A stretch of DNA of 63,953 nucleotides, filler included, from Hausera hauseri (Eukaryota): NCBI GenBank assembly GCA_046269625.1. It is 12 parts of 12 records of this genome, joined end to end, with 100 filler letters (N's around TTAATTAATTAA, not from the genome) between each part and the next. Parts side by side here need not be neighbours in the genome. Positions count along the whole stretch, not along the records: positions 59,956 to 63,953 come from JBJURY010830083.1; 11 more parts are not named here. One strand, written 5' to 3'. A program made the translations under genes and the position numbers. This document shows, one piece after another, positions 1,849-63,953 of this stretch (positions are counted from its first letter, which is position 1; each line of letters starts with the position of its first letter). The notes beneath the pieces are model-generated. The model ran no database searches, was not told the DNA's origin, and saw only the letters and a program-made list of their open reading frames with translations.

Positions 1849-2082
1849 GTTTTTAGTTGCCATCTATTCAGTAATATACTATTTTTGATGCTGGTTGTGA
1901 ATATGAAAAATTTTTTTGCAATGGCGCCATGATTGTTTTGAAAAAATTAAATTTCATTTTTAAAAAAAGTAACGGATTCATCAGAAATTAAATATTTTTT
2001 TAATAATGTTAAAAACTAATTTGTTTAAATATTTAATTTGTTTATGATACAATTTGATTTTTTTGTTTACATTTCTCTGTTG

Positions 2083-3475: not shown

Positions 3476-4621
3476 AAAAATGCATTTCTGTATCAGTATG
3501 AAAAATATGGATTGACGAAAAATGTATTTTCTGGATTTTTTTGCCAATTGTGAACAGATTTGACATAATTCTATGTCTCTGCAATAAAACGGTTTCTTTT
3601 TTACTGTAAATGTCTGTCATTTTTATAAAAAATTTTTATTTGATTAAAAATTAAATAAAATTATTTTATCATATCAGACAAAAATTTTGTCGACTGTTAA
3701 AAGGGAATTATTAAAAATCAGATGTCTCATTTATGGATTTTTTACATTTTGAATTTATTGAAATTTTGTTTATTTTCGAACATTCTAGAACACTTTGTTT
3801 TAATGCACCAAATAATTTTAATACACTTAGGCGTCAAATTTAAAAGGATTTTGCACATGGGGAATCGAATGGCATCATTAGATTCTTCGAATAATGCAAG
3901 TTTCACTGAGTTTTTGAGTTTGAATAGCTAATTATTGTATTCGGATACTTGTATGGTGTACCTTCTGATATCTGACTCACACAGAAGGTACACAAAGTCG
4001 TAGCATCCTACATGTTGCTAAATAATTCAGTATAGATTAGGGTTTGACGTCAGCAGTCCCAAAACTATCTCGAAAGTTCAAAACTTCACAGATATCATAA
4101 ATATATTTATCCAAATTCAATACAGATGTTAGTTGAATTGTAAGGTGGAAAATGATCAGATTCATCCATAAATAGTTCCTTGATTGATTTTTCAGAAATT
4201 CTTCAATGTAGCAAAAACTAATTCACACTCTGCTACATTAAATAAGATAAAATAAATATAATTATTTATTACGAATTCACCCCATGATTGATAAACAGAA
4301 TAAAAATCTGTCTTCATTATTTTTTCTTGAAATAGCAGCATTTTTAAAGTTCAGTTGATTCAAATTGTACTAATTGCATTGATGCTATTTTGATATTTTT
4401 AGTTGCCACCTATTCAGGAATATACTATTTTTGATGCTGATTGTGAATATGAAAAGTTTTTGCAATGGCGCCATGATTGTTTTGAAAAAATTAAATTTCA
4501 TTTTTAAAAAAAAGTAACGGATTCATGAGAAATTAAATATTTTTTTAATAATGTTAGAAACTAATTTGTTTAAATATTTAATTTGTTCATGCTACAATTT
4601 GATTTTTTCCTTACATTTCAG

Positions 4622-12029: not shown

Positions 12030-15000
12030 TTACAATAATGCCACATGCCCGTGAGGTAGTGTGTGGATTCCATCTTCAAGAATGTGCCTCTCGTCATCGA
12101 ACCAATCGAGACTTTTCTTCCGCAACGTAACTGTGTCAATTTGATGTTCCCGGGACTGGATCCTTTTCATGTCGCTGACTATGTGACTTTGCTCCCTCAA
12201 CACTCTCAAAATCTCCAAAGCCAATGTGTTTAGCTAATGTGGCTTTTTGAACTCCTTGGCCCGCTTCTTTACCTGACCACTTACATCGATGGCATACATT
12301 TTTGATCTCAGCGCCACGAAACGGGTGATAATCTTCCCATTTACCTCATCTTTAAACTTCCCGAGGACCTTCTTGTTGGTAATTGAATAATTTTGATGAT
12401 CCTCCGGATAGTCTGAGGTATCCATATATTGCACCAATTTTGCATACTTTTTAAAGACATCATCTGTGCAGATCTGGTATATGAAACTGTCCGTGTCCAT
12501 GTACATTAGCTGGAGCTCCTTGAGTGCAGGGACCATTATGTTGTAATAAAAATCATATATCAAGGTATTGGATAGATCCAATATGGACATGCCCACATAT
12601 ATAGGCTTATTGAACTCAAGTGATGTCTTGAGCATATGGATGCCCACCAGATTCTCCGTGTAGATTGTGCTGCTGTGGAAGTTGGACTTAGCGATGAGTT
12701 TCTTTGCTATCTTCCAGTCACATACCAGCTCTATGTTTATCCGGTTGCGGATTTTCTCCATAGTTTCGCCCAAGACCAAGTTGTTATACAACTTGAATTA
12801 GTCCTTTTCAAACTCGTTCTTGGCATTGGCCCTCAACTGAGTATTGAGGTCTATGTATAAATTCAACCATTTTGACTGGCTAAACTGCAGGACCCGATGA
12901 ATTCTGATGACTCAGAGTCCATTTTGGATGGCCTGTTAAAGATTGATGTAATGGACTACACACCTCTCCCTGTTTCCGAGATGGCAGAGAAGCTTCTTAT
13001 GCGTACCATTTGGTGGCTTCTTGCTCTCCGGCAGGAATGGCAGCTGCTCATGCCTTGTGTGTATGCTATGTGGATATTTCACATCCACCTCCGATATATA
13101 GCCCGTATCTGCAGTGGGATCTAGGTCCAATATTGGGATGTCGTCAGGATTCTCGACCCATTTGAAGTTATCATAGGGCAACGGGTTGCTCATTGCCCAT
13201 CCATAGAAGTTGTTGGTATCCAGATATGATATATATGTGGATTACTTTGATGGATCATAATTTGCCATGTATTTATTGTTGGCCTCACTTTATCTGTAAA
13301 TGGCCTGGCATATTCCACCCCTGCTGCCTCTCTCAACCATGAGGACCATATTGTAATCCTTCAATATCTGGAGCCTTATGCCGGTATAGCGCAGCATCGC
13401 CACCCAGCTCATTCCTGGAGGTGTAAAGAAATGGGCTGGATCTAATGTGTGGCTCTTAAGGGTCACATCCCGGAAGCTTTTAAAGACATCTGTAAGCAGC
13501 AGCACATCTGTGAGGAGATAGATATAGCAGTATTACCCTATTGTCCTGCACTAAAAGGTTTGTCATACTCTTCGGGCATGCCCATAGTCAGCATCGCTAA
13601 TATGACTAGATGACAACTGATTATAGAAGTCCTTCTTGTCCGGTAATGCTTCTTCATCCAGTGTTTCCAATAACGTTTTATAGTCACAGGGGAACACGTC
13701 TTTCCTCTTGACAAAATCAAATGCAGTGGGTAAGAACCGCTTCGTCTCATTGAGTTCTTCTGCAGGGATGTTCTTCACTAAACTATCCAGTGACGAGCTC
13801 ATGAAGCGGAAGCTGTCTATGAATCGAAGTCTAATGCGGCCCATATCCTTAGTGAAGGTGATACATTTTTCCTCACTATGTGGAATGCCATCAATGTTCC
13901 TCCAAATATTACCCAGTTTCCGAACAATAAAGTGGGAATCATAACCACTGAGATTTTGGAACACTACAGGCACATATGTACATGTTTTGCAACGTCGATT
14001 GCAGTTGTTGCATGCTGCACCTCGATATTTTCCTGTAAAATGGCTATGATCCCTGACTTTATAATTATCCTTGGTGAAGGACTTGTTGCACAAGTAACAT
14101 GTTGCCGTGCGTTATTTATCTTCCTGATGCTTCGACATGCTCATTGTATCCGTATGTTGCTAAAGCATGTTTTCAAGCCTATGAGCCATGTCTTCTAATC
14201 TCTTCATAAAATGTGCTGCTGCGTCTGGCCCTCTGAATAAAAATGGTTCATTGTCCAGTCCTTTGGCATACATACAATATGACGAGAGTTCATGATATTG
14301 GTATGCCGTTGTGCTACTATGTTGGGGATTAGGGCTGCAGCTGTGAACTGGACTGAGGATGGCCTCAAAATCACAATAGACGACAATCGGCACCTTCTGC
14401 ATCTTCTCGTACTCCTTGAATTCCAGGTAATCCTCCTTGGAAAATTCTGCTCAGATGCAATAGTTTGTATTACGGTAGGTCTTGTGCTCCTCCAGCTTTT
14501 CTGCGGATGTGTCTCCATTAAAATGGGTAAAGCATCTCTTACATATTTCCAGCCTTGATTCATGCTTGGATATTTGGGATCCTACGAGGCGCTCAAAATT
14601 CTTGATCCAGATGAAATGCCTCTTTTCTCCATCATCTGGCAGGACTAGATCCCTATAATCCTCCAATTCCTCCTTGCACACATGTAATGGATAAAATTTG
14701 TCCTCCTCCAATCCGAAGATGTTGATGGAGATGTTGTTCATGCTTTCAAATTTCACGACTTCATCTAGGCTCGGAGGAAATGAAATACAGATGAAGTCAT
14801 ATGTGTGCTGCATTTTGTCATGTATGCAAACTATGGAAGCATTATGTTGATCCTGTACTAGTTTTGACAAAATAGAATAAATGAAGCACATGCTGTCCTC
14901 ATTATAAACATTGATGCATGCCTTTTTCTTAACTATCCATTCAGGAAGCGGTATGTAGGGGCTGCCTCTCATGAGAGAATACTTATGCACATGCACAAGT

Positions 15001-15260
15001 AACCCTTTATTGTTGCTAAAGTTCAACCGCGCTTTTTGTCTTGGCTTTCTTCGGTTTCGCGGATAAGCTTTGCATAGTCTTCTGTAATAAAATCCTTAAT
15101 GTTAGAACATTTCAATAGTTACCTGTTCTTTGTCTTGTAGGCTCTATTAGACAGCTTTCCTTTGAGATTGGTGAAGGTGGCTTCCAATTTGAAGTTTACT
15201 TTAAGGGACTTCAGCTCCAACAAGTTGTCTTGGAGAATTCCTGCTGCCTGCTCCTTTGAA
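12030..15260 (-). pseudogene. Near full-length degenerate protein-primed DNA polymerase B with an endonuclease VII-like zinc domain
   Basis: GSPYIPLPEWIVKKKACINVYNED..CF; PIVVYCDFE (Exo I); CNKSF..KVRDHSHFTGKYRGAACNNCN (EndoVII); FQNLSGYDSHF; RFIDSFRFM; YLDTNNFYGWAMS; YMDTDSF (motif C); GKFKDE; LRSKMY. Confidence 0.9.
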
Positions 15261-16043: not shown

Positions 16044-16592
16044 CTGGCGCCTGATTCCCCTGAGATGTCGGTCTGGGTGGTCCAGTTTTGGCCGAACGAA
16101 CTGATTGATCATCTGACGTTAGATCCTGAGAACTGGTTGTTTTGGCGCCCGGTGTGCTGCAGGCGCCAGGATATTGGGAACCTGATAAAACAACGAATGA
16201 GACAGTCGTCATCGACAAAGCACATTACAATTGGGTAGGCGTGTATCGGTCTTCAGAAGATTGTTCAAAGAACCATTCAAATTTGACGAAGTCAGTGGAA
16301 TGTTATCGAGGGATTTGTCTGAAGTGTTCGATTGGAAATTGGGAATTTGATCTTGAACTGACACGGGAAAGTGGTTTGAAGTGTTGAGGGATGCTGTCAA
16401 TTGCGGTATGGACATGTGAGATCCAACACTGTTCGTCATTAGATGAGGTTGTTGGGCATGTGACATAATCGGTGCAGATATGCTTGATCCACTTGTATCG
16501 TATTGAGTATTTTCAAGACGAGTTATTGATCGTTCGTCCTCATCCCCAAATTCACCACCCATCAGTGTCGGTTCACCGACTATCATTACATC
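16044..16592 (-). CDS. LDB1: LIM-domain-binding protein (LDB1/Chip) 3' exons containing the LIM-interaction domain; partial
   Basis: DVMIVGEPTLMGGEFGDEDERSITRLENTQYD follows a splice acceptor at 16593. Probable 47-nt intron at 16182-16228. Upstream exons not seen. Confidence 0.85.
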
Positions 16593-18206
16593 CTGAAAAT
16601 GTCCGAATGGTAACAGTTATATTGTACCAGTTAGTTTAAAAAAACTTCAAAGGTTGTTGTTCGTTTTCAATCATCTAATTAAGCATTGCTCCCGCGGCAG
16701 TCTGCTGCGTCAGTTTTTAAGTATAGTGGTATCTTTGGCTCATTCTATATCCTACGTTATTTTTGACCCGATGTTAATGCGGCTAGTTTGGAACAATTCG
16801 GAAGAGTTACAGTTGTTTATTCATTGCTCAACAAAAGATATTTTACTGTATCAGAGATACTTCAAAAACACCCATTTCATCGAAATCACATCTCTCATTG
16901 CAACAATTGTAAGAGACTTATTCAACGTGTAGACTTCCTGTCGTGGGACAAATTGACATAAATTAAACAGTGATCCAATTTTTTTCGAATTGCTTGTAAA
17001 TAGATTAACGTAGGAACATTTCTAACATGCACACAGGGATTTTTATTAGAAATAGTCAGATAACTACAAAATATAATGCTGATAAATAATATGAAGATGT
17101 TTCATCAACAAAATCAAAATAATGTAATAAGCTTTTGAATGTGACAAGTTTTCGCATTTGTTCAAGTTTCTCCCAATTGCGATTAGGAATTTTGAATCTT
17201 GACAAAATTTTCGTTCCTTTTCTCTATGTAATTAGCACGATAAAATGAACGGACAATTGTTTTAAGTTAAAAATTCCTAAACATAATAGGGTAAATTTGA
17301 ACAATTTCGAAAAGCTGTCATATTTAAAAGTTCCAATTGCGCAAAACGTTTTTCATATTATTAATTAGCAATATTTTTTTCACACGTGTGCAAGTAAAAA
17401 ATGTTCCCTTGTAAGGTATACTGATACATTTTGGAATCACAGTTAGACAAGAGCTAAACCTAATGATTCCAAACAAATTGATTGGAAAATATTGACATGC
17501 CCACCAATGCATATAATGCAAGGTCTAGCATTTTTCAGAATGACTAACAACGCAGTTAGATATGGTTCAAAGAATAAGTACGATTTTCAAAAGTATAAAT
17601 CGTATTCAAATTCATGCAAAAATTTTACGATTCGGTAAAATCAATGGTCAATTCGAACAACTGTTTTAAAAATAATTTAATTTTGTATTTTTTTGAAATT
17701 ATTACAATATTTTCGATACTACTCAATAGAAAACATTAGCATGAAACTGCCTTTATTGAAAATGTTTTTATAACTCCGCAATCAATAGCTTTCATGGTTA
17801 TCCAAGGTCATCAATAAATATCTCTCACAGACCTTGTGTTTTTATTGTATCTCCAATTGTTTTCAAACGTTAGCAGACACAAAATTTATCTAATTGTGCT
17901 AATAAATGAAATAATACAATGATAAAATAAAACACATTTAATTGTTCATTGGTGAGCATCTTTCTGTTTTAATTTCATCAATACCAACGAAAACTGTCCT
18001 TGTGAATAGCAATTTCTAAACAAATTTCAACCGAAACAGAAATGAAAAAAATTTTTTCAACAAAAAATTACATTTTAATTACATTTACAGGTATATCATA
18101 AAATCTCATTAGGGAGACCGGAGAACAATTGGGTTAATGCTAATGTCCTTATTTTATTTTACATTACAATTGGATAAAACACAAGAGTTTATAATGATTT
18201 CGGGTA

Positions 18207-27089: not shown

Positions 27090-27974
27090 ATTGTTTCTTT
27101 TTACCTGACTGGTTGTCAAATTCGTTTTTCTTTTGACTGTGAGACTTCATCACTCTACTAAAATCACTCTGACTTTCATCTGTATCGTCATCGTCAGCAT
27201 CATCATTGTACTGATATTTAGACTTCTCTTCTTCGTTGTCATCAGTTATTTTTGAATCCAAAAACGACTCAGCAACTCGCCAAGCAATAAGGTCCTTAAA
27301 ATTAAAATATTTTTCTTCACTAGCCAATTTCCGTTCCCGAACACTAAGAACGAGCGTTTCAACAACTTTCTGTGAATCGCTTTTCGCAACACCCTTTTTA
27401 AAATACATTGCCAGGTCTTCTTCCCAACGACTCTGAACTACGGTTTCAATGCACGTTTTGGCTTCCGCGAATATGACATTCAATTCGTCCGAAATGTAAT
27501 TATCAAATTTTTTGTCGTTAATGTACGTTAATTCCGAACAGAAATATGCTAGACTTTGTTAAGCTTTTGACAAACGTTCTCGTCAATTTCAACGGAATAT
27601 AATTTTGGGAATTGTTCCAAAAGCGGAACAGTCAGAAGTCGATTTCGTCTGAGATTAAGTTTTATCAGATTTGGTAGGAAGAGACATCGGGGCAAGTAGG
27701 AAATGGAATTGTTGTACAGATTAAGTTCGACAAGATTGTAGCAGTAATTGATGTTAATCGGCGTGATGCTTGTAAAGGAACAGTTGCTGAAATCCAGTAT
27801 TCGAACTTTGTTTAATTTATCGGTGCCCGTGTGAATGTAGATTGCGCTTTCGTTGAGTACGTTGCCTTCGACTTCACAATTGACCTTTATATTGCCCAGT
27901 ACTTCCTGATTCTTAAACTCTTGGGGTTTGTATATGTCTTCACCGTCATCATCACTATCCGGCTTCGCGGACAT
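27090..27974 (-). pseudogene. Intronless N-terminal LRR portion of an LRWD1/ORCA-like gene (WD40 region missing)
   Basis: DKLNKVRILDFS, LVELNLYNNSISYLP, LEQFPKL and later IAWRV align with my recollection of the LRWD1 N-terminus. Confidence 0.6.
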
Positions 27975-28139
27975 TTCAATAACAAGAACGTAAGTGCTAC
28001 TGAGCATCGAATAAGCCGGTCCGTCTTCTAGAGAATCACTTAGCACTAGAACTGCTAGAGCTAGATCAAATTCGGGAATATTTTCCTGATTGTACAGCCA
28101 CATTTCCGTTGTGTTATAATCCTTTTTGTCTCCCATCGT

Positions 28140-29215
28140 ACTGTGGCGGAAAGAGTAACCAGATACTCTGACAAGCTTCTTAGCTAGGTCTGTCAATACT
28201 TTTCGGTATGTAAGCAGGCCTATGTTTCCTTTAATAAGATGATAGGCCGCTTCATTGACAGTAACGTCATACGGTAAAAGTGGCTGGTGTCGATCACGTT
28301 GGGAAGGCATGAAACGACTATTAAGTGCCGATGTTTCTTGCATATATTCATGAGCTTGTTCCACGTCACTAGGACTACCTTCGAGCATTGCTTTCAGTTT
28401 TGGTAATTCTTCTCGTATTTGCACTTCAACTGCGTTACACTCGGACTTCGGCTTCATGGGATATTGATAAAGTTCTTCCTGTTGTCGTTCAGCTGCCGTT
28501 CTGATTACGTTTTCTTCGTTGTTATTCAACTGTAAATCACGTTTATCGAAGCTTGAAAATCCCCTTTGACCAAAAAAGCTACCAGCAGATATATCCGTGT
28601 ACATAAAACCTGGTGCATTCATAAGCGGGGGAAACGGAAGAGAAGAAGTAGATCCAATATTTGACGGAGATTTGTCAACATTATTTATAACAACGCTATA
28701 ATTTCTGCTTTCAGGCTCAGCTTCATCTCGATTATCTGTGTGTCTTCCCGATTCCGTAAACAATCCGAAACGTTCTATCACAGTTGTTGCACGTTCAAAT
28801 AACTTTTTCTTATTGAAAGACAATGCTAGAACGTAACGACAGACTTGAGCTGCTGCTTCATTTGTGGCCATTTCAAAATGTGTAAGACGTTGGGCACTTG
28901 GTCTAGTTTGGACATAAATCTTGCTATGCTTACGCAATAGCAAAAGGTCGTTTTTACGCTCCTCGGCACGACTTTTGTGTCGTTCAATAAGACCAATCAG
29001 ATCATGGTAGACACCCAATGGACCAAGTTGCTCAGAATATGGCTGGACTGCAGGCAATTCTGAAGCACTGTGTAAAGCAGCAGCGACTTTTCTTGCTTCC
29101 TCTCTTATCGCAGCATATTCGGTTTTATTCATTTCCGGCGGACCCCAATCGGCTGCTGGATCTTCAACATCAGAATGATCCTCAAACTGATTTCGCATCA
29201 TTCCTTCTGGATCGC
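28140..29215 (-). pseudogene. Intronless fragment of a NAB (NGFI-A-binding / MAB-10-like) corepressor with two NCD2-like domains
   Basis: LRKHSKIY..LTHFEMATNEAAAQVC..KKLFERA and LLPYDVTVNEAAYHL..LLTYRKVLTDLAKKLVRVSGY match the NCD2 pattern LSLHELTxNEAAAQ..LFxLxRQVxRExxY. Confidence 0.7.
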
Positions 29216-30446
29216 CTTTATTAATTTCAAATTTTGTTACAATTGGCTCGCCATTTTTAAGAGGACCTTGTATAAGGTATTCAAAAACATGTTCAGAAAA
29301 TTGCAATTTAACGCTTTCTCCTTTCAATCCATACTTTTTATCAAGGACATTGTGNNNNNNNNNNNNNNNNNNNNNNNNNNNNNNNNNNNNNNNNNNNNTT
29401 AATTAATTAANNNNNNNNNNNNNNNNNNNNNNNNNNNNNNNNNNNNNNNNNNNNCTGCAGATACAGTGCTAAATTTTATGAAATCTCTACACACGGTCAT
29501 TAGAAAATTCATGGTTACTTCATCGCAATGATTTGGACATAATAATTTCTTCCATCTTGCATCTTAAATTCCATCCTCTAATATGAGATGTAATGCCTTA
29601 TTTAAAGCTTGTTCTCTTTGGTCCGGATATCTTAATGCTTGAATCATATCATTTATCCCATCTCTAGTATAGAGAGTAGTTTTGGATATATCTGTAAACA
29701 TTATTTACTACTGCATGTCTTAATGCTGTCAATGTAAGTCTTTTAGGTGTCTTATGAGGCTTCATTCGTTCTGGTAATACTACCTGTTATTTTTTCCATA
29801 TAGTTTTAAAAAAGTAGAAGTAATTCCAAAAATAGAGAATGAAGCAATAAATCCAAATACAGAAAACAAAAAAATTACTAATAACCTTTTATTTAGTAAT
29901 CAACATTTCAAAAAACAATTCAATTCTAAATCGATATTTATATAGAAAATTACTCCCGTAAAAGAACATAATATAGTGAGATCAAAATCAAGTTCATCCA
30001 AGTCCGCAATATAACAATTTAACTGATAAATCAAATTTTTATGTTATTGTTTATATTCTTTGTACAGAAAATTCCAACAATTCTTTCTTCACAGATTTTA
30101 ACAGATGTATCCATTACGCGCAATGCTTGTGTTCCATCACTACCAGGATTCCATTCCAACTATTGGTGCTTGAACAACATGAAGAGAGCCGACATTATAA
30201 ATGGCTTGAGGTCCTGATAAGCCTCCTGATGTTATTGGAGCCCCACAAATGTTATTGGGTCCATGTAGAACATTATGGGGAGAGACTGAGTTGAAATTAG
30301 GTTGAGAAAAAATGGTATCAGGGGAATTGCAATTGGTCGAATTGAAATGCTCGGACGTATTGTATCCATTTTCCATCTGACCTGTGTAATAACAAAATAA
30401 TGATATTTAGCATAATTAATGGAAGAATAAAAGAATATTTCTAATA

Positions 30447-43301: not shown

Positions 43302-45600
43302 CCGTACGGCAAGGGTTGCGAAAGCGCCCAGCCGTACAGGTTATTAATATCGATGTACAACATTGATGTTGTATCATCGTCTCCACTGGTTACGTGATGC
43401 TTGTTGACAAATGTCATGACGCTACGAATACCAACATCAAATAGTCGGTACATTTCCGGGTCTTGCAACAGCTCAATTTCCCTGTCCAGTGACATTAGTA
43501 CCGGTGCCCAACTCATCCCCGGTATGGAGTAAAAGTTTCCAGGTACTGGAGCATGTACTCAAACATGCTTCTGCAGCCGAGCTCTGTCCACGCTTCTTGT
43601 GCTCTGTGGTACTCGTCCTCTGTGATTCCGATCCATTGTGGTGACAATTCATCTGTTGTCTGAAGCCGCTCGTACGACACAACAGTAATGTGGGAATATG
43701 CCTTTGCTGTGCGCAATATGCGCGGGAAATTGCGTCAGCGTTATCGGCACATCCGGTAAGGCACTTACGAGCTTTCCTAGAGACTCATTGAGGAACTGCA
43801 ATGAATCAAGAAATCGTACCTGGAACCGGTTTATGCGTGCCGATAGGGACAGGTACTTCTCTATTCTTGTTGGAATTATGGGTAATTCCCAGTGTGGAAA
43901 ACCGTTTATGGTCCATTTCAGAATATGGTGACAATTATAACCCCGGAAGTTATGAAGAATCACCGGAAGGAATGGCCGCACACGCCTTGCCAAGTTGCAC
44001 GAATTGCATGCTGCTCCGAGATATCGCCCTGTAAAATGGTCGTGATCCAGTACGAGCCGTTTCTGTGCATCAAACGGTAATATTTTGTAGCACAGGTAAC
44101 ATTCATCTGTGACTGCAAACTTCAGGGGTTCATCTTCATCTGTTCACATCAAAGGTTTATTGCTATTTCTACTGTACCAGGGTTCGATTTCAGTTTCCAC
44201 TATGGTTTGCAACTGCTGCAAGAAATCGCGTACAATATTCCATCCGTGGAAAACATAATATTAAGGTTGACTTGCAGCTTTTATTGGGACAACCAACATA
44301 ACAGCGGCAATTGGAACATGGTTTTGGTCATATGTGTTGTGCCGTGGAAAGGTAGCTTAGATATCGGCATATACTACATATGCAGTACTGTCTGTTTATA
44401 ACCAATAAGTGAACTTAATTTCCTGTTTGACGTATATGACATACATTGTGGTTCCTGACGAATTTTGCCTGCACAGAGTCATATGTTTCTCTCATGTTGT
44501 TTCCAATCTGAATTCATGAAGACATACAGGATACCATTTACACTGTGTCCGTTTTTGGAGGAAATGGTCATATTCCATGTTCAGTAGTCTGTCCAGATTT
44601 GTGACTTCAACGTAGTGGTACTTTTCTTTTTGTTTTAGTAGCAACAAATTTACTCTGCGACCATTTGGGTTCTGACTACGATATATTATATCCAGATGAG
44701 GATTTTTGTAAATTTTTTCATCCGCCGGTATTTCTACGATTGTGTTGTGCCGGAACACGTTGATTGCCAGTGTCAAATTACGCCGTTCAAAAGCCAGAAG
44801 GGATTTCAGTTTCATCGGCATCCAGCTATCATAGAAATGCAATTCGGAAAAATATTTTTGATACTGTTTTGGACGAGATGCACTATGTCTGTCCACTTCG
44901 TCATATTTGCATACCTCCAGAATACTGTAAAGAAAACAGTATTCATCATTAGTATTTTTTAAATTCACTACCTCAAGAAACTGCTTCAGAGCTGCATGTG
45001 TCGATATGAATGATCGCCTGGACAAATATATTATGTCACTCGACTTTGTTATGAGAAAGCCGAGGGATACAATTCATATAATTCGCCATCTACTACCCTT
45101 TTCCGTGTAGTTGGCGATTTTCTCCTCGACCTTTTCGCCTATGTGGACAATAAAATCATTGGCATATGGTACAGCTCGATGCGACAGGTACTATTGTTTC
45201 CTGTCACCTTCAACGTTTTCAAATTCTGCAAGTGCATAATATTGCACTTTGCCGTGTTGGTGTTGGAATTTCTCCACTTCTGATTACAACCGGTTGTGCA
45301 CATTTTGCGAAACATATCTCAGTTGCGTTGTTCTTGTTTTCGCCGACATGTTCGCTTTTAAGTCCACGTACGATCTGTTCAGATCGTACTTGACATTAAT
45401 GCGGGTTCCTGGTGTATCTATTCCTCTTGCTGTTGCTGCTCCTGCTGATCCTGCTGTTGCTTTTCTTCTTCTTGCAGCTCGGTACTGGTTCTAATGAATT
45501 TGTCCAGACTTGTTGATGCCTTACGTTTCCTACTGGTTGTTGTTGTTGTAGAATAGATGCTGCTGCTGCTGCTGCTGATTTTTGTTCATTATATTAATAT
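43302..45600 (-). pseudogene. pPolB N-terminal half with EndoVII-like domain, degenerate
   Basis: VVNLKNTNDEYCFLYSIL, DHDHFTG..CNSCN, LPVILHNFRGYNCH, RFLDSLQFL, KGIFP, LYIDINNLYGWALSQPLPY. Confidence 0.85.
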
Positions 45601-45639
45601 ATGTTTTCTTGACCACCGCTAAAATTGGTTTAAGTGCGC

Positions 45640-47314
45640 CGATAGCACTGACGCAGTTCCCCGCACATATTGCACGGAGCAAAGGTATATTTCCATATGA
45701 CTTTGCAATATCGTATGAGCGACTCCGGACAGCAGAGGAATTACCGCCGAAATAGACAGGTGTCGCAAGGAATGATTACCGAAAAACACAGAGATGTTGA
45801 ACAGAACTCGGCTGTAGAAACATGTTGGATTACATGCTCCAGTATCTTAAACTGGACGTGTAAGTCTTAACCGATGTGGTCCAAGCGTTTCGAGCGAAAG
45901 CCTTGGCTGAAGATAGTCTAGAGCCACTCAAATTTTATTCCATACCGGGAATGAGTTTGGCGTCAGCTCTAATGTCACTGGATCGAGACATTGAGCTGCT
46001 GAAAGACCCAAAAATGTACTGGCTCTTTGATGTTGGTATTAGCGGCGGCATGACATTTGTCAACAAGAATCAGGTCAGTGCTACCGATATCACATCACTG
46101 CTGTATATTGACATTAATAACCTGTATGGTTGGAGCTTTCGCAACCCCTGCCATACGGTTCATTCGACTGGATTGTCGACAGACAAGATCTGGACAACAT
46201 AATGGTCATTTTACCATGAGCAGACATGGCAGGCTCAGTCGGATACCTAATTGAGGTCGATCTCGTGGTATCAGATGAGCTGCATAACGATTCGGACGAT
46301 TTACCGGTCGCACTATTTAACCAATGTCCACCAGGCTCAAAAGTGAATAAACTGCTCATGACGCATGAACCGAAGCTAAATTACCTGGTCTATTGGCGTC
46401 TGCTACAGTTCTACATGCAGCTCGGTGTACGCGTCACACGGCTACACTGCGCAATCCGATTTTCTCAGGCTCCCATATTCAAGGCGTACATAGATGAAAA
46501 TTCGGAGAAACGAGTCTCAGCTTGTACAAAGTTCGAAAAGGGCTACTACGAGCTGACAAACAATTTTCTGTGCGGTAAAATAGTGGAGAATCTGAAAAAG
46601 CGGTTCAATGTACGCCTATACAATAGCGAAAAGCGGTTAGGCACGTACAAGAGCAAGGCACAATTCAAGCGATTAATGCACATTACCGATGGATTGGTTG
46701 CGATGCTGTTAAACCGGGAAGAAGTCGTTCTGGACCGACAAAGTAACATCGGACAAGTGGTATTGGACCTGAGCAAGTTGCGAATGTACGAGCTTCAGTA
46801 TCGCGATTTGGCACGTTATTGTCAAATGTTTGACGGTTGTGGCATTAGTATAATTGCCTGTGACACAGACAGTTTTCCCTGCGGCTACTGCAGCAAATGC
46901 AGTCAGATGGATTACTGGACATGTCCAATTATCCACCGAATCATCCGTTGTACAGCAGCGCGATCACCAATAAAATTGGCTGCTTCAAGGATGAAAGTGA
47001 AGGTCGTGTCCGGTACCCGGAACTGATATTTCTTCGCCCAAAGTGCTACACTCTTCTGACGGACTGTGGACCGAAAATTCGCGCCAAAGAAGTCCAGCTG
47101 AGACAGACGGAAATCTATCACGGTGATTATCGCCGTATCTTTGAAGAAGAAGAAGGATAATCAAAGGCTTTTGTGTCACAAACGATCATCCGATCGATTG
47201 AGCACCAGCTGTATACGGTGACCAATACAATTCTCTTTACCATGCAATGATGATAGGCGTAAGTGGGTGGGGCGAAATAAGAGTTGGGATTACGGACATT
47301 GGTGTTTGGAATAA
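45640..47314 (+). pseudogene. pPolB C-terminal half, degenerate, oriented away from the copy on its left
   Basis: YLKLDV, YSIPGMS, LYIDINNLYGWS, YYELTNNFLCGKIVENL, CDTDSF, IGCFKDE, FLRPKCY, DDRRKW..YGHW. Confidence 0.85.
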
Positions 47315-55899: not shown

Positions 55900-56720
55900 G
55901 TTGATACAGGCTTAGTTGAGGATTCAGGTGTGTCATCAACAAAAACGCCGGTTTCACGTTGATGATATGGCCGTTTTGCTTATTTCCGTTTTTAGGTGTT
56001 GTGACTATATGTGATGTAGTGTTTAAAACTTTAAACGGTCCTAAGTAGAGTTGTTGAAATCCAGATGGGGAAGAAATTTTCAACCACACTAGCTTTGCGT
56101 CAAACAATAACTCAGATGAATATGTTTTATCACCGTGTATTATTTTACAGAAAGAGTCCTGACCTAACCGAACGAAATGTTTTTGTGAAGATCTAATTAT
56201 TTCGTCAGTAGGTGTATTGTCTAAGTCAGTCAACTCGAAAAGCGCACGTATGGTAATGCGGAAAAGTGCTTCTGCGGTGCACAACCGGTGGTAGTGGACG
56301 GCGTGATGCGCCATCCGAGTAATACGAATAGATGGATTATTGTCCAGTTCGTGTGAGTTTCGGCGAGAATTTTTAATAAAATTTTAAGTGTGCGGCGGAA
56401 ACGTTCCAACAAGCCGTTCGACTGGAGAGGTACGGTGTGGTATGTATGCGGTTTATGCCCAGTCGATTAACTAGAGATTTGAATAGGTTCGATTCGAATA
56501 AGGGGATTTGGTCTGTTATGATATAGTTTGGCGAACCGAACCGGCTGATCGAAACTCTTATAAAAGCGTCTGCAATGGAGTCCGTGTTAACAGAACGGAG
56601 TGTAATGGCCTCAGACCAACGAAATGCACGGTCCATCATAGTCAAAATGAATTGATGACCATTGTCGGATGGTAAAGGACCGACTGTGTCTAGATGGACT
56701 GATTCGAAAGGAGACGTACA
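55900..56720 (-). mobile_element. Ty3/Gypsy (CsRN1-like) integrase remnant
   Basis: FESVHLDTVGPLP, LTMMDRAFRWSEAI, SRFGSP..ITDQ..FES, LERFRRTLK, YLGPFKVL, VKPAF. Confidence 0.85.
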
Positions 56721-56999
56721 GAGTAGTAGAAAAATGTCGGTCCTGGCTCAGCCCTCCTTCCGAGCAGCCAATCCGAAGCGTGCTTGATGCGCAAACAAGC
56801 ACGGCCGAATAGAATCGATGACGTAGATTCCAAAAAACACTGTGGAAAGTACATGGTGCACCCCGGAAGCAGGAGAAATGCACGAAAAAAAGCGGATGTA
56901 AGAAGGAAGAGGTGCACTGTGGTGTGTGGCATATGGAAATGAAGGGCGGCAATGGCGCATGGAAAGCCGAAGGATCCAAGTCGATTGGATGGAGTGGAA

Positions 57000-58350
57000 A
57001 AATTATATAACGTGGATCATAACGTGAACGTGACCTTGTTATCAATACATCAAAATTTTCTATATATAGTTCCTTTTTATTATTTTCGTAACATAAAATT
57101 GCTTCAACTTGACTTACGATCCCTTCCATAACCAACCCTTTCCCTCTTGTTCTTTCCCTCAGCATAATCCTCAACGCTTCGAATTCATGATTTCTCCCAC
57201 CCTTTACCATTCCCTTATCAAATATATACATATAAGAAAATACGTTTAATTTAATTTCACAATCAAACTGAGCCATTGTTAACGCGGTGCTCCTCCGCGG
57301 GGTAATTTTTCCACCTTTAAACGATGGTGTCGTATCATGCAGACTGATTTTAATATCCACTCCGGTGTCATAATCACCGCCGGCAATCATTGAAACGGAA
57401 GAACAAAAACCGACAATAATATATTTATAACCTTTAACAATTTTTTGGATCACGTTCTCCAATCCTATAAACGTCATTTGACCTGCTCTACATTCCATAA
57501 TTCTCGACTCCTTGTCACCGTTAACGTCAATCTCATACATTTTGCCACTTTATTCGTTAATACATCGCCTGAATGCAGATGTCTACTCATTTTCACTCGT
57601 GAATAAAAATCATTTGATGTTAAATCGATTTTCCCATCGCGTGCTTCATCAAAATATTTCGTTTTCTCAATATCTTTAACACTATTCAGATCTGAGTATT
57701 GAGTATCAGTTGAAGAAACAGAAACTTTCCGAACTCGTCGATGAACAAACCCTGACGTTCGTTTAATGAAAATCTCTCGATATTGAAACAATTGTGAGTC
57801 TTTATCTTCTGCTATTGATGTCATACAAAATTAATTGCCAAATTCAAGATACTCATGTAATTCCCCGATGGTTGTTCAAATAAATGTTTTAATAGAAACA
57901 ATAAATACTTCATGATTGAATAAGTAGCTTGATCAAAATTTGACAAAATACTACAAATTTTATATATATTGAATACCGTGAATCGCGAAGTATGTATACA
58001 ATCGGCAACACAATTCGTTCCAATATAACCCCACAAATTCACTAGTCATCATCTTTCATCTTTTTTACTCTATCAGAATAACACAATTCTTGTTCAACCA
58101 AATAGTTTTTCTGTTTTAGTAATTGTTGATGCGAACTGTCAAACAATAGGTACCTAACCAAACGTAATAACACATGACTCACTTCAATGTATTCGACGTA
58201 AATTGCACCTTTATGATTCACCTCGGTTGATTGGATATTTCTCATATAATCCAACAATTTTTCATAGCCACAGCACATAATTATTCCTGGTTGTTCGATT
58301 AACTGATCATTCCAACATATCGCTAATTTGTACCATTCATCGTTCATCAT
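57000..58350 (-). other. Broken intronless orphan reading frame (~450 codons), origin unknown
   Basis: Four abutting or overlapping ORFs on one strand with protein-like composition; no motif recognised. Confidence 0.35.
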
Positions 58351-59339
58351 AATTTTCTTTTTAAAAACCTTTTAAATTCAAAAAAAATTAATAATCCATA
58401 TTGATCATTTATCACAAATATCCATGGATTTAGACTTTATGACTGGGCTAGAAATATAGAAAACATGTAGAATGCTTCTCTTTAGTGGCATATTTTGCTT
58501 ACCTGTTATATGGCTGATAAATGTTATGTCGTTTTCTTTTTAAATTTATGTTTCAAAATGATGATCTTGATGAACGAAAATTAATAAAACGGTGTAATTT
58601 CTCTCGATTATTACTCAATGAAGATATATCATTTTAGATGTGGTGTTGAATATTGTGGGTACGTTTCTGTGGTTTGTGATTAATGTGTCTTGGTTATCAG
58701 TGGAACATGCTTGTTCTGTTAGATGATTTGTGAAATAAACCAAAAGTTTTGCGTTTTGATTGATTTGTGTTCATCAGGAATATTCAGTTCTATAGTTAAT
58801 ACAAATTTCTCTTTCTTTCCAATTATGGTTCTAAAGAAGTGGTAGACCATTATGGTCTCTTGATAATGTTAAAAGACCAAAGATAATCAAATTAAAAGTT
58901 TCTGTTGCTCTACGAAAGTCTCATGAGGTCACGGGCAAAGTATTACATTAAGTAATATTTCATTAAATTATACAGAACAATATTTTTTTAAATTACTTTT
59001 ACGACATACTGTTTGACCTTTCAAAGGAATCAAAAATAGAGTGATGAAAACTGAAATATGATTCATAAATAAAAGTATCTATAATAAAGTATTTTGTATA
59101 TTTGATCATGAGTGGTATTCTTTTTCTAGTGATATTAATTGTAAGCCGGATTCTTTGTTCAAAAGAATCTGTTCATTCAGATTAAAGGAAAAAAGAAATT
59201 TTACTGTAAATCAAGTGTTTCTATTGAATATTGTCAGAAAAGTATAAAAATTCATGTTGATCAATTATATAATAAATATTTTTGCCAAAGAAACTCAAAG
59301 ATACAAAATCCTTAACTACAACAGATTACAGTCGTTTTA

Positions 59340-59830: not shown

Positions 59831-59955
59831 GAGCAGAAGGAGGATAGGCATATATNNNNNNNNNNNNNNNNNNNNNNNNNNNNNNNNNNNNNNNNNNNNT
59901 TAATTAATTAANNNNNNNNNNNNNNNNNNNNNNNNNNNNNNNNNNNNNNNNNNNN

Positions 59956-60904
59956 ATGATACTTTCGAAAATGATTCGAAAAAAGAGCAAATATTATTGG
60001 AAGCGCTTTCTCAATCAAGTTTCGATAATTGTATCAGTCATATTGAAAAACAAATGCCTCTCGAATACTGTTACCATAAGAAACAGTTCGGGTCATATGC
60101 AAGTGCAAAATTCGTTAAAGATACATTATTTTTTCGCAGCAATTGGCGTTATCCATTAATTAATATTAAGAATCGTATAAAGAATATTGCTCTAATCGGT
60201 CCGCCAGGTATAGGCAAAACCGAATTTGCCCGTGCACATTTCGATCATCCTCTTATGGTGAACAGTCGTCAAGACTGGGGAAGATTCAAAGCAGGCTATC
60301 ACGATGGTATAGTGCTTGACGATGTGCCTCTGGCGAATTTCGACCCGCTTACTGTCAGAGGTATACTTGATTACATGCATGACTATACCATAGACATTAA
60401 ATATGGTCATAGTTTCATTCCGCATGATGTTAAAAAGATTATATGCAACACGGACATGAAAACGCTATTTCCGTAAAAAGTACGGAAAATGAAATCGAGG
60501 CAATCATGCGTTGATTGGATATTTATCAATTTACCGAAACAATATTCGTAACAAAAAAATATCCAACCATACAGCTTGCTTTGCCAAAACCGACAGTTGA
60601 ATATTTAGGTGTATTAGTTCGTAGCAATGAATGGTTAACGTCAAACAAAAAAAATGAAAAGACGAACATTAATGTTACCGATTTACCAACACCAATACCA
60701 GGTACGTCGTCTAATAATAATAGTGCTGAACTTTGTGAACTAAAACAAACATTGAATAAACTAATGGTTGAAATGAAGTCTCTAAAACGGAAATCAATAA
60801 CAGCTGTTGATATTGACAGAGAATCAACAATATCTAAAGTGTCTAAATGTGACAATGATTGTATATCTTTAATTTCTAGTGACGAAAATAATAATGATCA
60901 ATAA
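59956..60904 (+). pseudogene. rep: CRESS-DNA-virus-type Rep, SF3 helicase half (5' part beyond the contig break); stop/frameshift at ~60476 and TGA at ~60512
   Basis: Walker A GPPGIGKTEFAR, Walker B GIVLDD, IDIKYG..IP, motif C KIICN, Arg-finger-like EAIMR*L, then an acidic/coiled tail. The stop codon overlaps AATAAA. Confidence 0.8.
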
Positions 60905-60931
60905 AGTCTTTATATTTGATTTATTTATTTA

Positions 60932-61681
60932 TTACATTATCATATCGTTTATCATTTTACGTGCAAGTACAAATACATTGTCATCACGATGAACAAAATA
61001 ATCCAAGTAACCATATGGCAGAATACTTTTTATTTGCGCATTACTAAATTGTACTAAAACTCCACGATTAAGAAAAGCTGTAGAGTAGCTACTGCAATGG
61101 TACCATGGTACGTCCTTGCTAGTCCATATGTTTGGAGTTCGTTTAATAGCATAATTGGATTTTTTATATTTGACCATGGTTTTCAGATAACAATTACTCT
61201 CGGCAATCTGTAAGTATCTCGATGCTTGGTTTGGTGTGAAGGTACACTCTTCACAAACGATTATATCTTTATTTACGCAATCATAAAGCATAAATGGTGA
61301 GCTTTCATCGAAGCAATTCACGACACCAACATCCATACCTGCTGTAAGAACATTACTTAATAATGTTTTACCTGAATTAGATTCTCCTACAAGGTATATA
61401 GCATTAATTTTAGCATATTGTTTATTCAAAATTGCAAAAAATAGTTGCCAAAGTGCACAATAATCACTGTTGTGAAATTTACATTTTGCCATATGATTAG
61501 TCTCATTATGCATATTTCGATATCGCTGAACTTCGGAATTAGCATGTAACCATTCAGGAAACGTGACTGTCGGCTGACCCACATTAAATATGTCAATAAC
61601 AAAGTTAAACAATAACAATACACTTTCGTTCGTTTCATTGATATTACAATATTCCGATAATTCCATATGTAAAGTAGTCAT
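60932..61681 (-). CDS. Parvovirus NS1-type SF3 helicase lacking the HUH nuclease domain (249 aa from ATG 61681; frame open to 61741)
   Basis: KINAIYLVGESNSGKT (A), FMLYDCVNKDIIVCEE (B), MVKYKK (B'), RTPNIWTS (C), AFLNR. Intact ORF. Confidence 0.85.
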   Translation of the reverse strand: MTTLHMELSEYCNINETNESVLLLFNFVIDIFNVGQPTVTFPEWLHANSEVQRYRNMHNETNHMAKCKFHNSDYCALWQLFFAILNKQYAKINAIYLVGESNSGKTLLSNVLTAGMDVGVVNCFDESSPFMLYDCVNKDIIVCEECTFTPNQASRYLQIAESNCYLKTMVKYKKSNYAIKRTPNIWTSKDVPWYHCSSYSTAFLNRGVLVQFSNAQIKSILPYGYLDYFVHRDDNVFVLARKMINDMIM

Positions 61682-61734
61682 GATTAAATAAAATGAAATA
61701 AACAACGAAACTTTATTAATATAAATAAATTTTG

Positions 61735-63953
61735 TCACCATTCAATGTCGTTTAGATTCATATTATCCTCTTCTATTGGATAAGGCCTAAATTTTGTAGC
61801 ATCTGTTTTACCGACAGCTAGAGGAATAACCGGCACACTAACACCGAGCTCATGAAGCACATTGTCATGTGCTGAAGTGTCAATTGAGCTTTGTACTGCA
61901 CCTTTTGAATAATTGACGGGGTGCCGTATTAATTTTGGAAATCGAAAAGAGATATATGCAGTAAAATCACAAATAGCCGTAAAAGTACTGTTTAAATTAT
62001 TATCAATTCCAAGAATAGGCGTATCTCGTATGTATAAACCAGGTACTGGACTGGGTTCTAAAATTGGTGTACTGTAAATTATATCATTAACACGACAACT
62101 TAAAATAAAATAATCTTCCATTTGAAATTTTCTGCTTTCCACATTATTTAAACTCCAAAACGGCGTATTTTGAGCATCTGGTACAACAGTTATAACCTGT
62201 TTTATAATATTATTTGCAAATGAAGCATCTTGAGTAAGAATATATGGTTTTGTTTTTGCATATTTAGCATTTTCCGTTAAATTTACATTTGTTTTTGTAA
62301 CTATATGTGCAGCATCAGGTTTCTGTGGTGTATATGATGTTGGCTGCCATCTGCTGTTTAAATAGTTAACATGTCTACAACCCCAATTATCAACTCTTGG
62401 CCACAGTTTAACGTTAAAATTTGAAATTCCATCTATTTTGCTATCAACTTTCCGTGGCCATGCTCTACATTGCATAGACCAATATAACCATTCTCCATTA
62501 TCACGCCAATTTCTATATGTCATTTTCCATTTGAAATTGTAACTGCATGGCTTATTACACCCTAACGGTATTGCGTATGGATGTGTACAACGGATTTCTG
62601 TACCGCTAAAGTCTACAGGTCTCATTCGATCCATTTTAACTGTACCGTCATCTTGTAAACCAGCGGAAAAAAACGGTTTATTACCACATTTATTACCTGA
62701 AGTATTTGGATCTAGAAATTTCTCAAAATAATTAACACCGTTCATGTCACAATTACCCATAACAGGACTTACCAAATATGCTGAATCCTGATAAACGGAA
62801 ACCTGCTGATTAACGTGTGCTCCAATATAATCATTAGTACCGATAGCTGATGAATTTAATACCTGTCTAATATTAAATTCAATTCCTTCTGCTCTCCATT
62901 GTTTAGTCATAGCCAATTTTTGATATAATGATGGATTATTATATGCCAATAAGTGCATAAATTCAACTGGTATTTTATACCACATATTTTGTTTCTGTTC
63001 AGTTTTCCAAATTAATATCACTGGAAATGTTAATGCTATTGTTGTAGCATCTTTAGGATTCGCATATTTCGGACATTTATAAAATGGTATAGCAACATTT
63101 GTTTTTTCACCACCTTCCAATACGTGTGTTTGAATGTTATCGTCAGCTGCACGTTTTCTTCTTCCTCCTCCTCCAATACCCGCCGGTTCACCGCTAGCAT
63201 TAGGACTGATTTCTGTCATGTCTGGAATAATTTTGATCTGTTGTAATTTATTGATTATATTTATTTCGTCCTCCATGTCGTCGTTTGATTGGTTAGGTTC
63301 TTGTTTGATTGTATGTGCACGACGAGATGTGTTTGGTATGAATTGTGTAAAATTATCGATTTTTTTCCAAATTTCTTCCAGATCCTCTATATCTTCATCT
63401 GACATGGTACCTCTGTAATGTCTCCGTAATCGTAATTCCTCATGTCGGTCTTTAAACAATTCCACATATGATTGTAACGATTGTACAACTAATTCTTTAA
63501 AAGCTATCAATAACTTTATGTCACTTTCAACCCACTCATGATTAACTACTCTACTCAATACTAAAGATGCAATTGCTGTACGTAAACTGTCCATACCAGT
63601 TCCTTCATACATTTGATCCATAAACGGTTCCACAAGCCAGCTTAAACTATCTGGTAACATACTCTGCATTAATCCCGTAAATGTATACCTTGAATATTTA
63701 AGCATAGACGATTGTAAATATTCTTTGTAACTACTGGCAAATATTTGTTCCTGTTGTTTTTGATACTCTGTTTCATTAACACCATTAAACATTTTCTGTA
63801 GAATTTCTTTAACTTCATCGTGAATAATTTCAAATTGTTCTTCTAATTCATCAACATCGAAAACTTCATTTCCGAATTTAAATAATGAACGTGATTCACC
63901 AATATTAAATACTTTTTTCAAAATTGTTTTAATTGAATAATCACTTACACCTT
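61735..63953 (-). CDS. Parvovirus/densovirus-like capsid protein with a long N-terminal extension; frame open to the window edge
   Basis: Intact frame of more than 728 aa. Internal M at 63219 starts a 494-aa region with GIGGGG, an RRKR NLS and WYKIPVEFMHL, resembling parvoviral VP. AATAAA follows the stop. Confidence 0.6.
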   Translation of the reverse strand, partial: GVSDYSIKTILKKVFNIGESRSLFKFGNEVFDVDELEEQFEIIHDEVKEILQKMFNGVNETEYQKQQEQIFASSYKEYLQSSMLKYSRYTFTGLMQSMLPDSLSWLVEPFMDQMYEGTGMDSLRTAIASLVLSRVVNHEWVESDIKLLIAFKELVVQSLQSYVELFKDRHEELRLRRHYRGTMSDEDIEDLEEIWKKIDNFTQFIPNTSRRAHTIKQEPNQSNDDMEDEINIINKLQQIKIIPDMTEISPNASGEPAGIGGGGRRKRAADDNIQTHVLEGGEKTNVAIPFYKCPKYANPKDATTIALTFPVILIWKTEQKQNMWYKIPVEFMHLLAYNNPSLYQKLAMTKQWRAEGIEFNIRQVLNSSAIGTNDYIGAHVNQQVSVYQDSAYLVSPVMGNCDMNGVNYFEKFLDPNTSGNKCGNKPFFSAGLQDDGTVKMDRMRPVDFSGTEIRCTHPYAIPLGCNKPCSYNFKWKMTYRNWRDNGEWLYWSMQCRAWPRKVDSKIDGISNFNVKLWPRVDNWGCRHVNYLNSRWQPTSYTPQKPDAAHIVTKTNVNLTENAKYAKTKPYILTQDASFANNIIKQVITVVPDAQNTPFWSLNNVESRKFQMEDYFILSCRVNDIIYSTPILEPSPVPGLYIRDTPILGIDNNLNSTFTAICDFTAYISFRFPKLIRHPVNYSKGAVQSSIDTSAHDNVLHELGVSVPVIPLAVGKTDATKFRPYPIEEDNMNLNDIEW

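What the first reader, a model, noticed from the sequence alone, without database searches (positions are those of the whole stretch)
59956..63953. Hybrid ssDNA virus-like unit: CRESS Rep converging on a parvovirus-like capsid plus a second, nuclease-less NS1-type helicase
Seen: a plus-strand Rep with CRESS-style SF3 motifs, and minus-strand VP-like and NS1-like ORFs that are both intact. Rep and NS end 27 bp apart, with AATAAA signals on both strands at the stops, as in a native ambisense genome rather than a random joint. Known: parvoviruses have one HUH+SF3 NS1 upstream of VP; CRESS viruses have one Rep; bidnaviruses keep a parvo-derived capsid and HUH-less SF3 helicase but replicate with pPolB. 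Inference: a bidnavirus-like VP+helicase packaging module driven by a rolling-circle Rep, giving two different SF3 helicases in one small genome. This may be an undescribed virus lineage, endogenised recently (only Rep shows lesions).
Basis: partly seen in the sequence, partly recalled or inferred. Interest (0 to 1): 0.88.

Follow-up and report, generated by a model that had tools for sequence, protein, structure and literature searches.

The report
Two-helicase parvovirus–CRESS hybrid virus
A 4-kb piece of a small DNA virus, found among contigs of what is likely an animal genome, carries a circovirus-type replication gene facing a predicted parvovirus-like capsid gene and a second, nuclease-less helicase that likely packages the DNA; this gene set was already noted in a preprint, so it is a new, very divergent member of a barely studied virus group.

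Summary
The three-gene unit is real. The window is a string of short contigs joined by artificial spacers; the last contig (59956 to the window end) is wholly viral, with no host flank. It holds a CRESS Rep (+; 5' part with the HUH nuclease cut off by the contig start; one frameshift, one stop), an HUH-less NS1-type SF3 helicase (-) ending 27 nt from Rep, and an open 738-aa ORF: a predicted helical extension plus a predicted parvovirus-like capsid (fold not confirmed). A contig of run X1 spans the Rep end and the gap without differences; X1 holds many diverged copies with a synonymous excess. The architecture is not undescribed: Buck et al. 2024 (PMC11071296) list 14 'Parvo-CressRep' genomes, and two of them (Parvo5097, ant gut; Parvo6041, planarian) share helicase and capsid motifs with this one by eye. 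No database relative of the capsid or helicase was found, so it is a distant new member. Likely mechanism: the CRESS Rep starts rolling-circle replication, the second helicase packages the genome like AAV Rep40/52 (inferred). Endogenous versus free virus is unresolved.

The parts
59856..59955 (.). Artificial contig spacer (44 N + TTAATTAATTAA + 44 N); not biology. The viral contig starts at 59956
   Evidence: 11 identical spacers in the window
59958..60476 (+). CRESS Rep, 5'-truncated by the contig start: oligomerisation linker and SF3 helicase (Walker A at 60198-60221, Walker B, motif C). HUH motifs I-III would lie upstream, off the contig
   Evidence: tblastn 26-43% to CRESS Reps; alignment A1; profile positions 125-282 of 315 matched, HUH motifs at positions 24, 59, 98-101 absent from the whole window
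60474..60514 (+). Two breaks in Rep: a frameshift near 60474-60478 (at a run of A) and an in-frame stop at 60512-60514 within the arginine-finger motif
   Evidence: Three-frame translation; with X at both breaks the profile match extends from position 282 to 314 and from 103.5 to 111.0 bits
60479..60904 (+). Rep 3' part and low-complexity C-terminal tail up to its stop
   Evidence: X1 record 2 matches 60608-60956 with no difference
60900..60933 (.). 27-nt convergence zone with polyadenylation-like AATAAA on both strands (60900-60905 +; three overlapping at 60920-60933 -)
60932..61741 (-). Stand-alone NS1-type SF3 helicase, 269 codons from the first ATG (likely true start 61681 or 61666); Walker A GESNSGKT at residue 119, Walker B 164, VPW motif 211, arginine finger 226; no HUH domain
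   Evidence: Pfam Parvo_NS1 E 8.9e-10; best PDB match AAV Rep40 E 5.6e-5, residues 58-209 to 54-198; Atlas first hit 0.98, a 247-aa NS1 cluster; motifs
61712..61717 (-). AATAAA 18 nt after the capsid stop; candidate poly(A) signal of the capsid transcript
   Evidence: function untested
61735..63219 (-). Predicted parvovirus-like major capsid protein, 494 aa from the ATG at 63219, with a G-rich/basic N-terminal motif; its stop overlaps the first ATG of the helicase ORF
   Evidence: Atlas features 0.96 to parvovirus capsid clusters, recognition score low; motifs shared by eye with Parvo5097 and Parvo6041 VP; 21 of 37 listed differences in the long ORF synonymous against 8.4 expected; fold not confirmed
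63220..63951 (-). In-frame acidic, predicted all-helical N-terminal extension (at least 244 aa, open at the window edge); candidate 'Cah'-like minor-capsid region
   Evidence: Same open frame; AlphaFold model all helical but pLDDT 41; no Pfam match at E<0.03

Best explanation
The contig is part of the genome of a small, likely single-stranded DNA virus of the unclassified 'parvovirus with CRESS Rep' group, in which the CRESS Rep would nick the origin and start rolling-circle-type replication while the separate nuclease-less NS1-type helicase likely acts as the motor that feeds the genome into a predicted parvovirus-like capsid. Shown: the three genes, their families (Rep, helicase), their linkage at the Rep end, and coding constraint on the capsid ORF. 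Inferred: that the full Rep has an HUH domain (all nine database Reps aligned to it do); that the long ORF gives a long and a short capsid protein from two starts; the division of labour, by analogy with AAV Rep40/52 and with bidnaviruses, which keep the same nuclease-less helicase beside a foreign replicase. The copy here has a broken Rep and sits in a multi-copy, diverged family in run X1, most simply repeated integrations in an animal genome, but no host junction is shown.
For: Rep: profile of nine database CRESS Reps E 2e-30; the A1 profile finds circovirus-type Rep structures in the PDB, E 3e-24 (that profile is mostly database Reps). Helicase: Parvo_NS1 E 9e-10, Rep40-sized match, no HUH motif. 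Linkage: X1 record 2 covers 60608-60956 with no difference and no joint is listed at the junction. Constraint: 21 of 37 listed differences synonymous, null mean 8.4, 0 of 20000 draws reach 21; all indels listed inside the long ORF sum to multiples of three (tables 4 and 5; the -2 and -1 rows have the same contig depth). Prior art: 14 Parvo-CressRep genomes; all 10 NS1 proteins I saw are 184-330 aa, SF3-sized; 2 of these 10 (Parvo5097, Parvo6041) share the VPW motif with the window helicase; hand count 25 of 66 identical without gaps between helicase residues 102-167 and Parvo6041 NS1. AAV small Reps lack the origin-binding domain and are needed for efficient packaging (PMC12713660 passages); bidnavirus S3H is stand-alone (PMC4061559 passages).
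Against: The capsid fold was not confirmed: single-sequence AlphaFold pLDDT 29, Foldseek meaningless, no Pfam, no PDB sequence match, 0 hits in 1.84 billion representatives, Atlas recognition 1836 below the 2300 mark. The HUH domain is not in the window. The comparison with the published genomes is by eye only. The Rep is no closer to them than to ordinary CRESS viruses: over the 31-residue Walker A block 20, 18 and 18 identities to Parvo3580, Parvo6041 and the environmental L001 (hand count); 0 of 51 Rep-bearing loci fetched (44 distinct contigs) carry this helicase or capsid. AAV Rep40 matches the helicase core about as well as Parvo6041 does. Record 2 reaches only 25 nt into the helicase ORF, under the tool's 31-nt rule for the helicase stop itself, and X1 may be the source sample. 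No experiment bears on packaging.
Confidence: 0.66

Rival explanations
1. Same virus, different division of labour: the NS1-type helicase is the replicative (fork) helicase or a regulator, and packaging is done by the CRESS Rep or needs no motor.
For: PMC11071296 calls NS1 the replicase and the CressRep 'auxiliary'; PMC12713660 says the roles of small Reps remain poorly understood.
Against: The Rep already carries a complete SF3 domain, so a second fork helicase is redundant; the helicase stays beside the capsid gene whether the replicase is a pPolB (PMC4061559) or a CressRep, which points to a capsid-linked job (inference).
Confidence: 0.17
2. A free (exogenous or episomal) mixed virus population co-sequenced with the animal, not an endogenous family; the Rep breaks are then assembly errors or a defective genome. 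This concerns status only and is compatible with the best explanation's mechanism.
For: No host DNA on the 3998-nt contig; copies diverged under purifying selection; the X1 contigs covering both Rep breaks read differently there at full listed depth; the frameshift lies at a run of A.
Against: 129 contigs of one run spread over four identity bands (48, 30, 30, 21) and 15 lie only partly on the stretch, as expected for many integrated copies; lesions in Rep.
Confidence: 0.35
3. Chance neighbourhood: a bidnavirus-like capsid-helicase block (replicated by a pPolB elsewhere) next to an unrelated CRESS insertion, or a misjoin of a multi-copy family.
For: pPolB fragments lie on other contigs of the window (13566-14111, 43652-44143; DNA_pol_B_2 E 1e-5, under the cut-off); the same Rep clade usually goes with ordinary CRESS capsids.
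Against: 27-nt junction with poly(A)-like signals at both stops; X1 record 2 spans it without difference; the same gene set is on 14 published genomes; no similarity between this contig and the rest of the window.
Confidence: 0.1

Closest known systems
'Parvovirus with auxiliary CressRep' group of Buck et al. 2024 (PMC11071296), Cah-bearing members Parvo5097 (BK066460, ant gaster, 4972 nt, circular) and Parvo6041 (BK066653, Dugesia japonica RNA-seq, 5710 nt, listed as linear)
   Same: Gene set CressRep + short HUH-less NS1 + VP + helical Cah; helicase VPW motif and capsid W-x-x-x-P-x-E block shared by eye; in Parvo5097 the file order Cah, VP, NS1 equals the order here.
   Different: Here the helical region is in frame with VP (separate proteins in both published genomes); Rep converges on the helicase, whereas file order suggests one strand in Parvo5097 and the NS1 strand in Parvo6041 could not be seen (maps too large to read); Rep is broken; multi-copy diverged family in one run; sequences too distant for the searches to link.
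Bidnaviridae (Bombyx mori bidensovirus)
   Same: Parvovirus-derived capsid and a stand-alone SF3 helicase without the nuclease domain (PMC4061559).
   Different: Replicase is a CRESS Rep, not a pPolB; capsid gene lies upstream of the helicase; no second segment seen.
Parvoviridae (incl. AAV Rep40/52)
   Same: Helicase family (Parvo_NS1; best PDB match Rep40) and predicted capsid type.
   Different: No HUH domain on the NS1-type protein; a second, foreign Rep; no PLA2 motif in the part seen; ends not visible.
Cressdnaviricota, environmental CRESS viruses with a GKTxFAxxHF Rep (e.g. L005, L001)
   Same: Rep clade, 26-43% identity.
   Different: They carry one helicase and an arginine-rich CRESS-type capsid; none of 44 distinct contigs has the NS1-type helicase.
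Oomyviridae / parvo-like hybrid virus (NIH-CQV), a silica-column contaminant
   Same: CRESS-type Rep once paired with a 'parvovirus-like' capsid label (PMC13426907 passages; PMC13141889).
   Different: As described in those passages: one Rep and a PLA2-bearing capsid, no second helicase mentioned; not compared by sequence here.

Membership tests
Parvo-CressRep group (Buck et al. 2024) | Parvovirus-class NS1 helicase | tested here: met
   Pfam Parvo_NS1 E 9e-10; PDB Rep40
Parvo-CressRep group (Buck et al. 2024) | CressRep on the same genome | tested here: met
   junction spanned in X1
Parvo-CressRep group (Buck et al. 2024) | Parvovirus-like VP | tested here: inconclusive
   Atlas 0.96 and motifs by eye for; fold, Pfam and sequence searches blank
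Parvo-CressRep group, Cah-bearing subgroup | Predicted helical Cah protein before VP | tested here: inconclusive
   All-helical model at pLDDT 41; homology to published Cah not computed
Parvo-CressRep group (Buck et al. 2024) | Phylogenetic placement of helicase and Rep with the published members | not testable with these tools
   The published proteins were seen only as text in a supplement and were not returned by any search
Parvoviridae | NS1 with HUH endonuclease plus SF3 helicase (PMC13426907) | tested here: not met
   At most 118 residues before Walker A, no HUH motif
Parvoviridae | Linear genome with terminal hairpins | not testable with these tools
   Both ends cut; no long inverted repeat inside
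Bidnaviridae | Stand-alone SF3 helicase and parvo-like capsid | tested here: inconclusive
   Helicase met; capsid fold unconfirmed
Bidnaviridae | Protein-primed PolB beside the capsid-helicase block | tested here: not met
   A CRESS Rep occupies the 3' side; no PolB on the contig; DNA beyond the window not seen
Cressdnaviricota | Rep with CRESS-type SF3 domain | tested here: met
Cressdnaviricota | HUH motifs I-III in Rep | not testable with these tools
   Would lie upstream of the contig start; absent from the whole window
Cressdnaviricota | Circular genome with nonanucleotide stem-loop | tested here: inconclusive
   No NANTATTAC-type nonamer on the contig, but the intergenic region between the 5' ends is off the contig
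Endogenous viral element | Host DNA flanking the viral sequence | tested here: inconclusive
   None on the contig; 15 of 129 X1 contigs lie only partly on it, loose ends unidentified

The most novel reading that the evidence does not exclude
This is the first host-anchored, multi-copy germline family of a distinct ssDNA virus lineage in which a parvoviral capsid-plus-packaging-helicase module, with a helical domain fused to the capsid, has been re-powered by a CRESS Rep in an ambisense layout: a natural parallel to bidnaviruses that splits initiation and packaging into two unrelated helicases, and deserves its own family.
Probability: 0.3. Interest if true: 0.72.

Novelty: new member of a known kind. 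Interest (0 to 1): 0.5.

Why it matters
The Parvo-CressRep group is known, in what I found, from one sentence of a preprint and metagenome-assembled records, mostly from faeces or mixed samples, with no family, host proof or mechanism. A diverged multi-copy family in an animal assembly could tie the group to a host. The layout also bears on an open question stated in PMC12713660: why AAV needs nuclease-less small Reps for packaging. Here, and in bidnaviruses, such a helicase is a separate gene that stays with the capsid while the replicase is swapped, which makes 'packaging motor' directly testable without isoform overlap.

Tried and rejected
No relatives by word-index search for capsid, helicase or Rep, by phmmer of the 738-aa ORF over 1.84 billion proteins, or by peptide-pattern scans of viral contigs. 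Motif scans and the A1 scan gave 56 loci; 5 were dropped (L013-L015 chance bacterial matches, L055-L056 P-loop only), and 0 of the other 51 (44 distinct contigs) hold the helicase or capsid. Single-sequence folds failed and the Foldseek search on the capsid model is meaningless. No whole genome is held. No RNA holder listed. Summed X1 depth is lower over Rep than over the capsid, but contig depth cannot rank genes, so it is not used. No long repeats or nonamer on the contig. Paper searches with no result; searches gave no paper devoted to this architecture beyond PMC11071296 (listings only for the rest). PMC13595969 part 1 of 4 and File 9 part 1 of 13 held nothing relevant. Earlier scan findings: none for this place or sequence; six loose word matches did not bear on it. 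Reagent contaminant (PHV) considered: unlikely given diverged multi-copy presence and a single holder run, not tested by sequence. No complex prediction was sent: without an alignment the capsid does not fold.
Full report
Setting. The window is not one stretch of DNA: it is a string of contigs joined by 11 identical spacers of 44 N, TTAATTAATTAA and 44 N. The finding occupies the last contig, from 59956 to the window edge. Other contigs carry a LIM-interaction domain (E 5e-12), a NAB conserved region (E 2e-19), Tc5/pogo and mariner transposases and retroelement integrases (11 of 20 ORFs scanned had a Pfam match at E<0.01), which points to an animal assembly (NAB as an animal family is my own knowledge). 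No whole genome is held. The viral contig has no similarity to the rest of the window beyond chance 15-19-mers and no host flank.

Anatomy. On the plus strand a frame open from the contig start (59958-60476) encodes the linker and SF3 helicase of a CRESS Rep. It aligns at 21-29% overall with nine database Reps and starts just after their motif III; a profile built from those nine alone matches positions 125-282 of 315 at E 2e-30, and no piece of the HUH half (motifs at positions 24, 59, 98-101) is found anywhere in the window. The gene is broken by a frameshift near 60474-60478 and an in-frame stop at 60512-60514; read with X at both, the match runs on to position 314 across the arginine-finger motif, and the frame ends at 60904. 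On the minus strand a 738-codon frame enters from the window edge and stops at 61735; its stop overlaps the first ATG of a 269-codon frame that ends at 60932, 27 nt from the Rep end. Shuffled contigs give a longest frame of 87 aa at the median and 184 at most in 500 trials. AATAAA lies over the Rep stop, three times behind the helicase stop and once behind the capsid stop; 4% and 6% of 35-nt windows hold one by strand.

The second helicase. It matches Pfam Parvo_NS1 at E 9e-10; its best PDB match is AAV Rep40 in near-equal register (58-209 to 54-198, E 6e-5); the Atlas puts it at 0.98 with a cluster of 247-aa NS1 proteins. Walker A is at residue 119 and there is no H-hydrophobic-H motif. It aligns with the Rep only over the P-loop (16 residues, E 0.12), so the two helicases have different origins.

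The capsid. Residues 245-738 resemble parvovirus capsid clusters by language-model features (0.96, 222 of 256 features), but the recognition score is below the reliable range. Pfam, PDB and all sequence searches were blank, the single-sequence model failed (pLDDT 29) and its Foldseek result is meaningless. The fold is therefore predicted, not shown. The first 244 residues model as helices only, at pLDDT 41.

Linkage and copies. One run, X1, holds the stretch (75% of sampled words); it may be the source sample. 129 of its contigs lie on it: 48 at 99% or more, 30 at 95-99, 30 at 90-95, 21 below 90. Record 2 covers 60608-60956 without difference: it bridges the Rep stop and most of the gap by the tool's 31-letter rule and reaches 25 nt into the helicase ORF; the only joint listed is an in-frame 66-nt skip inside the capsid; 123 of 131 pieces were not shown. 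Of the 40 best-supported differences shown (347 more hidden), 37 fall in the long ORF: 21 synonymous, 16 not, no stop, against 8.4 synonymous expected for the same kinds of change at random sites (0 of 20000 draws; the two rows in Rep and one in the helicase were left out). Listed indels in that ORF keep the frame. The X1 contigs covering the two Rep breaks read differently from the window there, so the lesions are particular to this copy or to its assembly. The copies thus diverged as working genes; whether they are integrated or free is open.

Relatives in contig collections. The Rep clade is common: 56 loci were fetched, 5 dropped as chance or P-loop-only matches, and none of the remaining 51 (44 distinct contigs) has the NS1-type helicase or this capsid. 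The Rep alone does not mark the hybrid group.

What is known. [quoted passage not shown] Its File 1 lists 14 such genomes of 3.5-5.7 kb from rodent, bat, bird, sea star, wastewater, ant and planarian samples, 13 listed as linear and one as circular. In the protein file, the 10 NS1 proteins I saw are all short, 184-330 aa. Two, Parvo5097 and Parvo6041, also have a Cah protein and alone among the 10 share the VPW motif after motif C with the window's helicase; a hand count gives 25 of 66 identities without gaps between residues 102-167 and Parvo6041 NS1, and the capsid block at 324-362 has counterparts in both VPs. These comparisons are by eye. The first 400 nt of Parvo6041 show its VP on the minus strand at the left end and those of Parvo5097 show Rep on the plus strand; the map files were too large to read, so whether a convergent Rep-NS1 layout is already among them is unknown. 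PMC4061559 (passages) describes the stand-alone S3H of bidnaviruses; PMC12713660 (passages) describes packaging at the five-fold pore and the drop in encapsidation without Rep40/52; PMC13426907 (passages) and PMC13141889 (part 1 of 2) cover Oomyviridae and the PHV contaminants. Searches found no paper devoted to this architecture; subscription journals are largely outside the library.

Mechanism. Most likely (about 0.66 for identity plus mechanism; about 0.85 for identity alone) the Rep is the initiator and fork helicase, and the NS1-type protein is a packaging motor inherited with the capsid. The argument is comparative: the nuclease-less helicase cannot nick, the Rep has its own helicase, and the capsid-helicase pair persists beside either a pPolB or a CressRep. 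All functional steps are inferred. Rivals are a replicative role for the second helicase (0.17) and a chance neighbourhood or misjoin (0.1); separately, free virus rather than integrated copies has about 0.35.

Verdict. It keeps moderate interest because the group is unclassified and untested, no database relative of the capsid or helicase was found, the helical region is fused to the capsid, and a multi-copy family in an animal assembly may supply the missing host link. Interest 0.5.

Noticed in passing
window 12237-15095 and 43652-47023: Fragmented protein-primed PolB genes with an endonuclease VII domain (Endonuclease_7 E 3e-7, DNA_pol_B_2 E 1e-5) on two other contigs; Polinton/adintovirus-like remains, not linked to the finding.
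   Followed up: partly
L018 (Ga0136644_10011876) 1488-2693 (-) and 2769-4343 (+): A Rep of the same P-loop clade with a degenerate-looking N-terminal half lies head to head with a PIF1 helicase (E 1e-39) on a 6-kb contig without a recognised capsid; possibly a larger mobile element.
   Followed up: partly
L002 (IMGVR_UViG_3300005807_000021): Two near-identical Rep-capsid units in tandem on a 4180-nt contig; two related circles or a concatemer.
   Followed up: no
window 56611-58371 (-): Three ORF pieces of 109-312 aa in the contig before the finding, next to a retroelement integrase fragment, with no Pfam match; may be remains of another virus-like element.
   Followed up: partly
window 16212-16616, 27552-29402: Host-type genes: LIM-domain-binding (LID) exon and a 600-aa NAB/NCD2 plus leucine-rich-repeat ORF.
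   Followed up: no
window 62410-62477: One X1 contig skips 66 nt in frame inside the capsid ORF, which may mark a variable surface loop.
   Followed up: no
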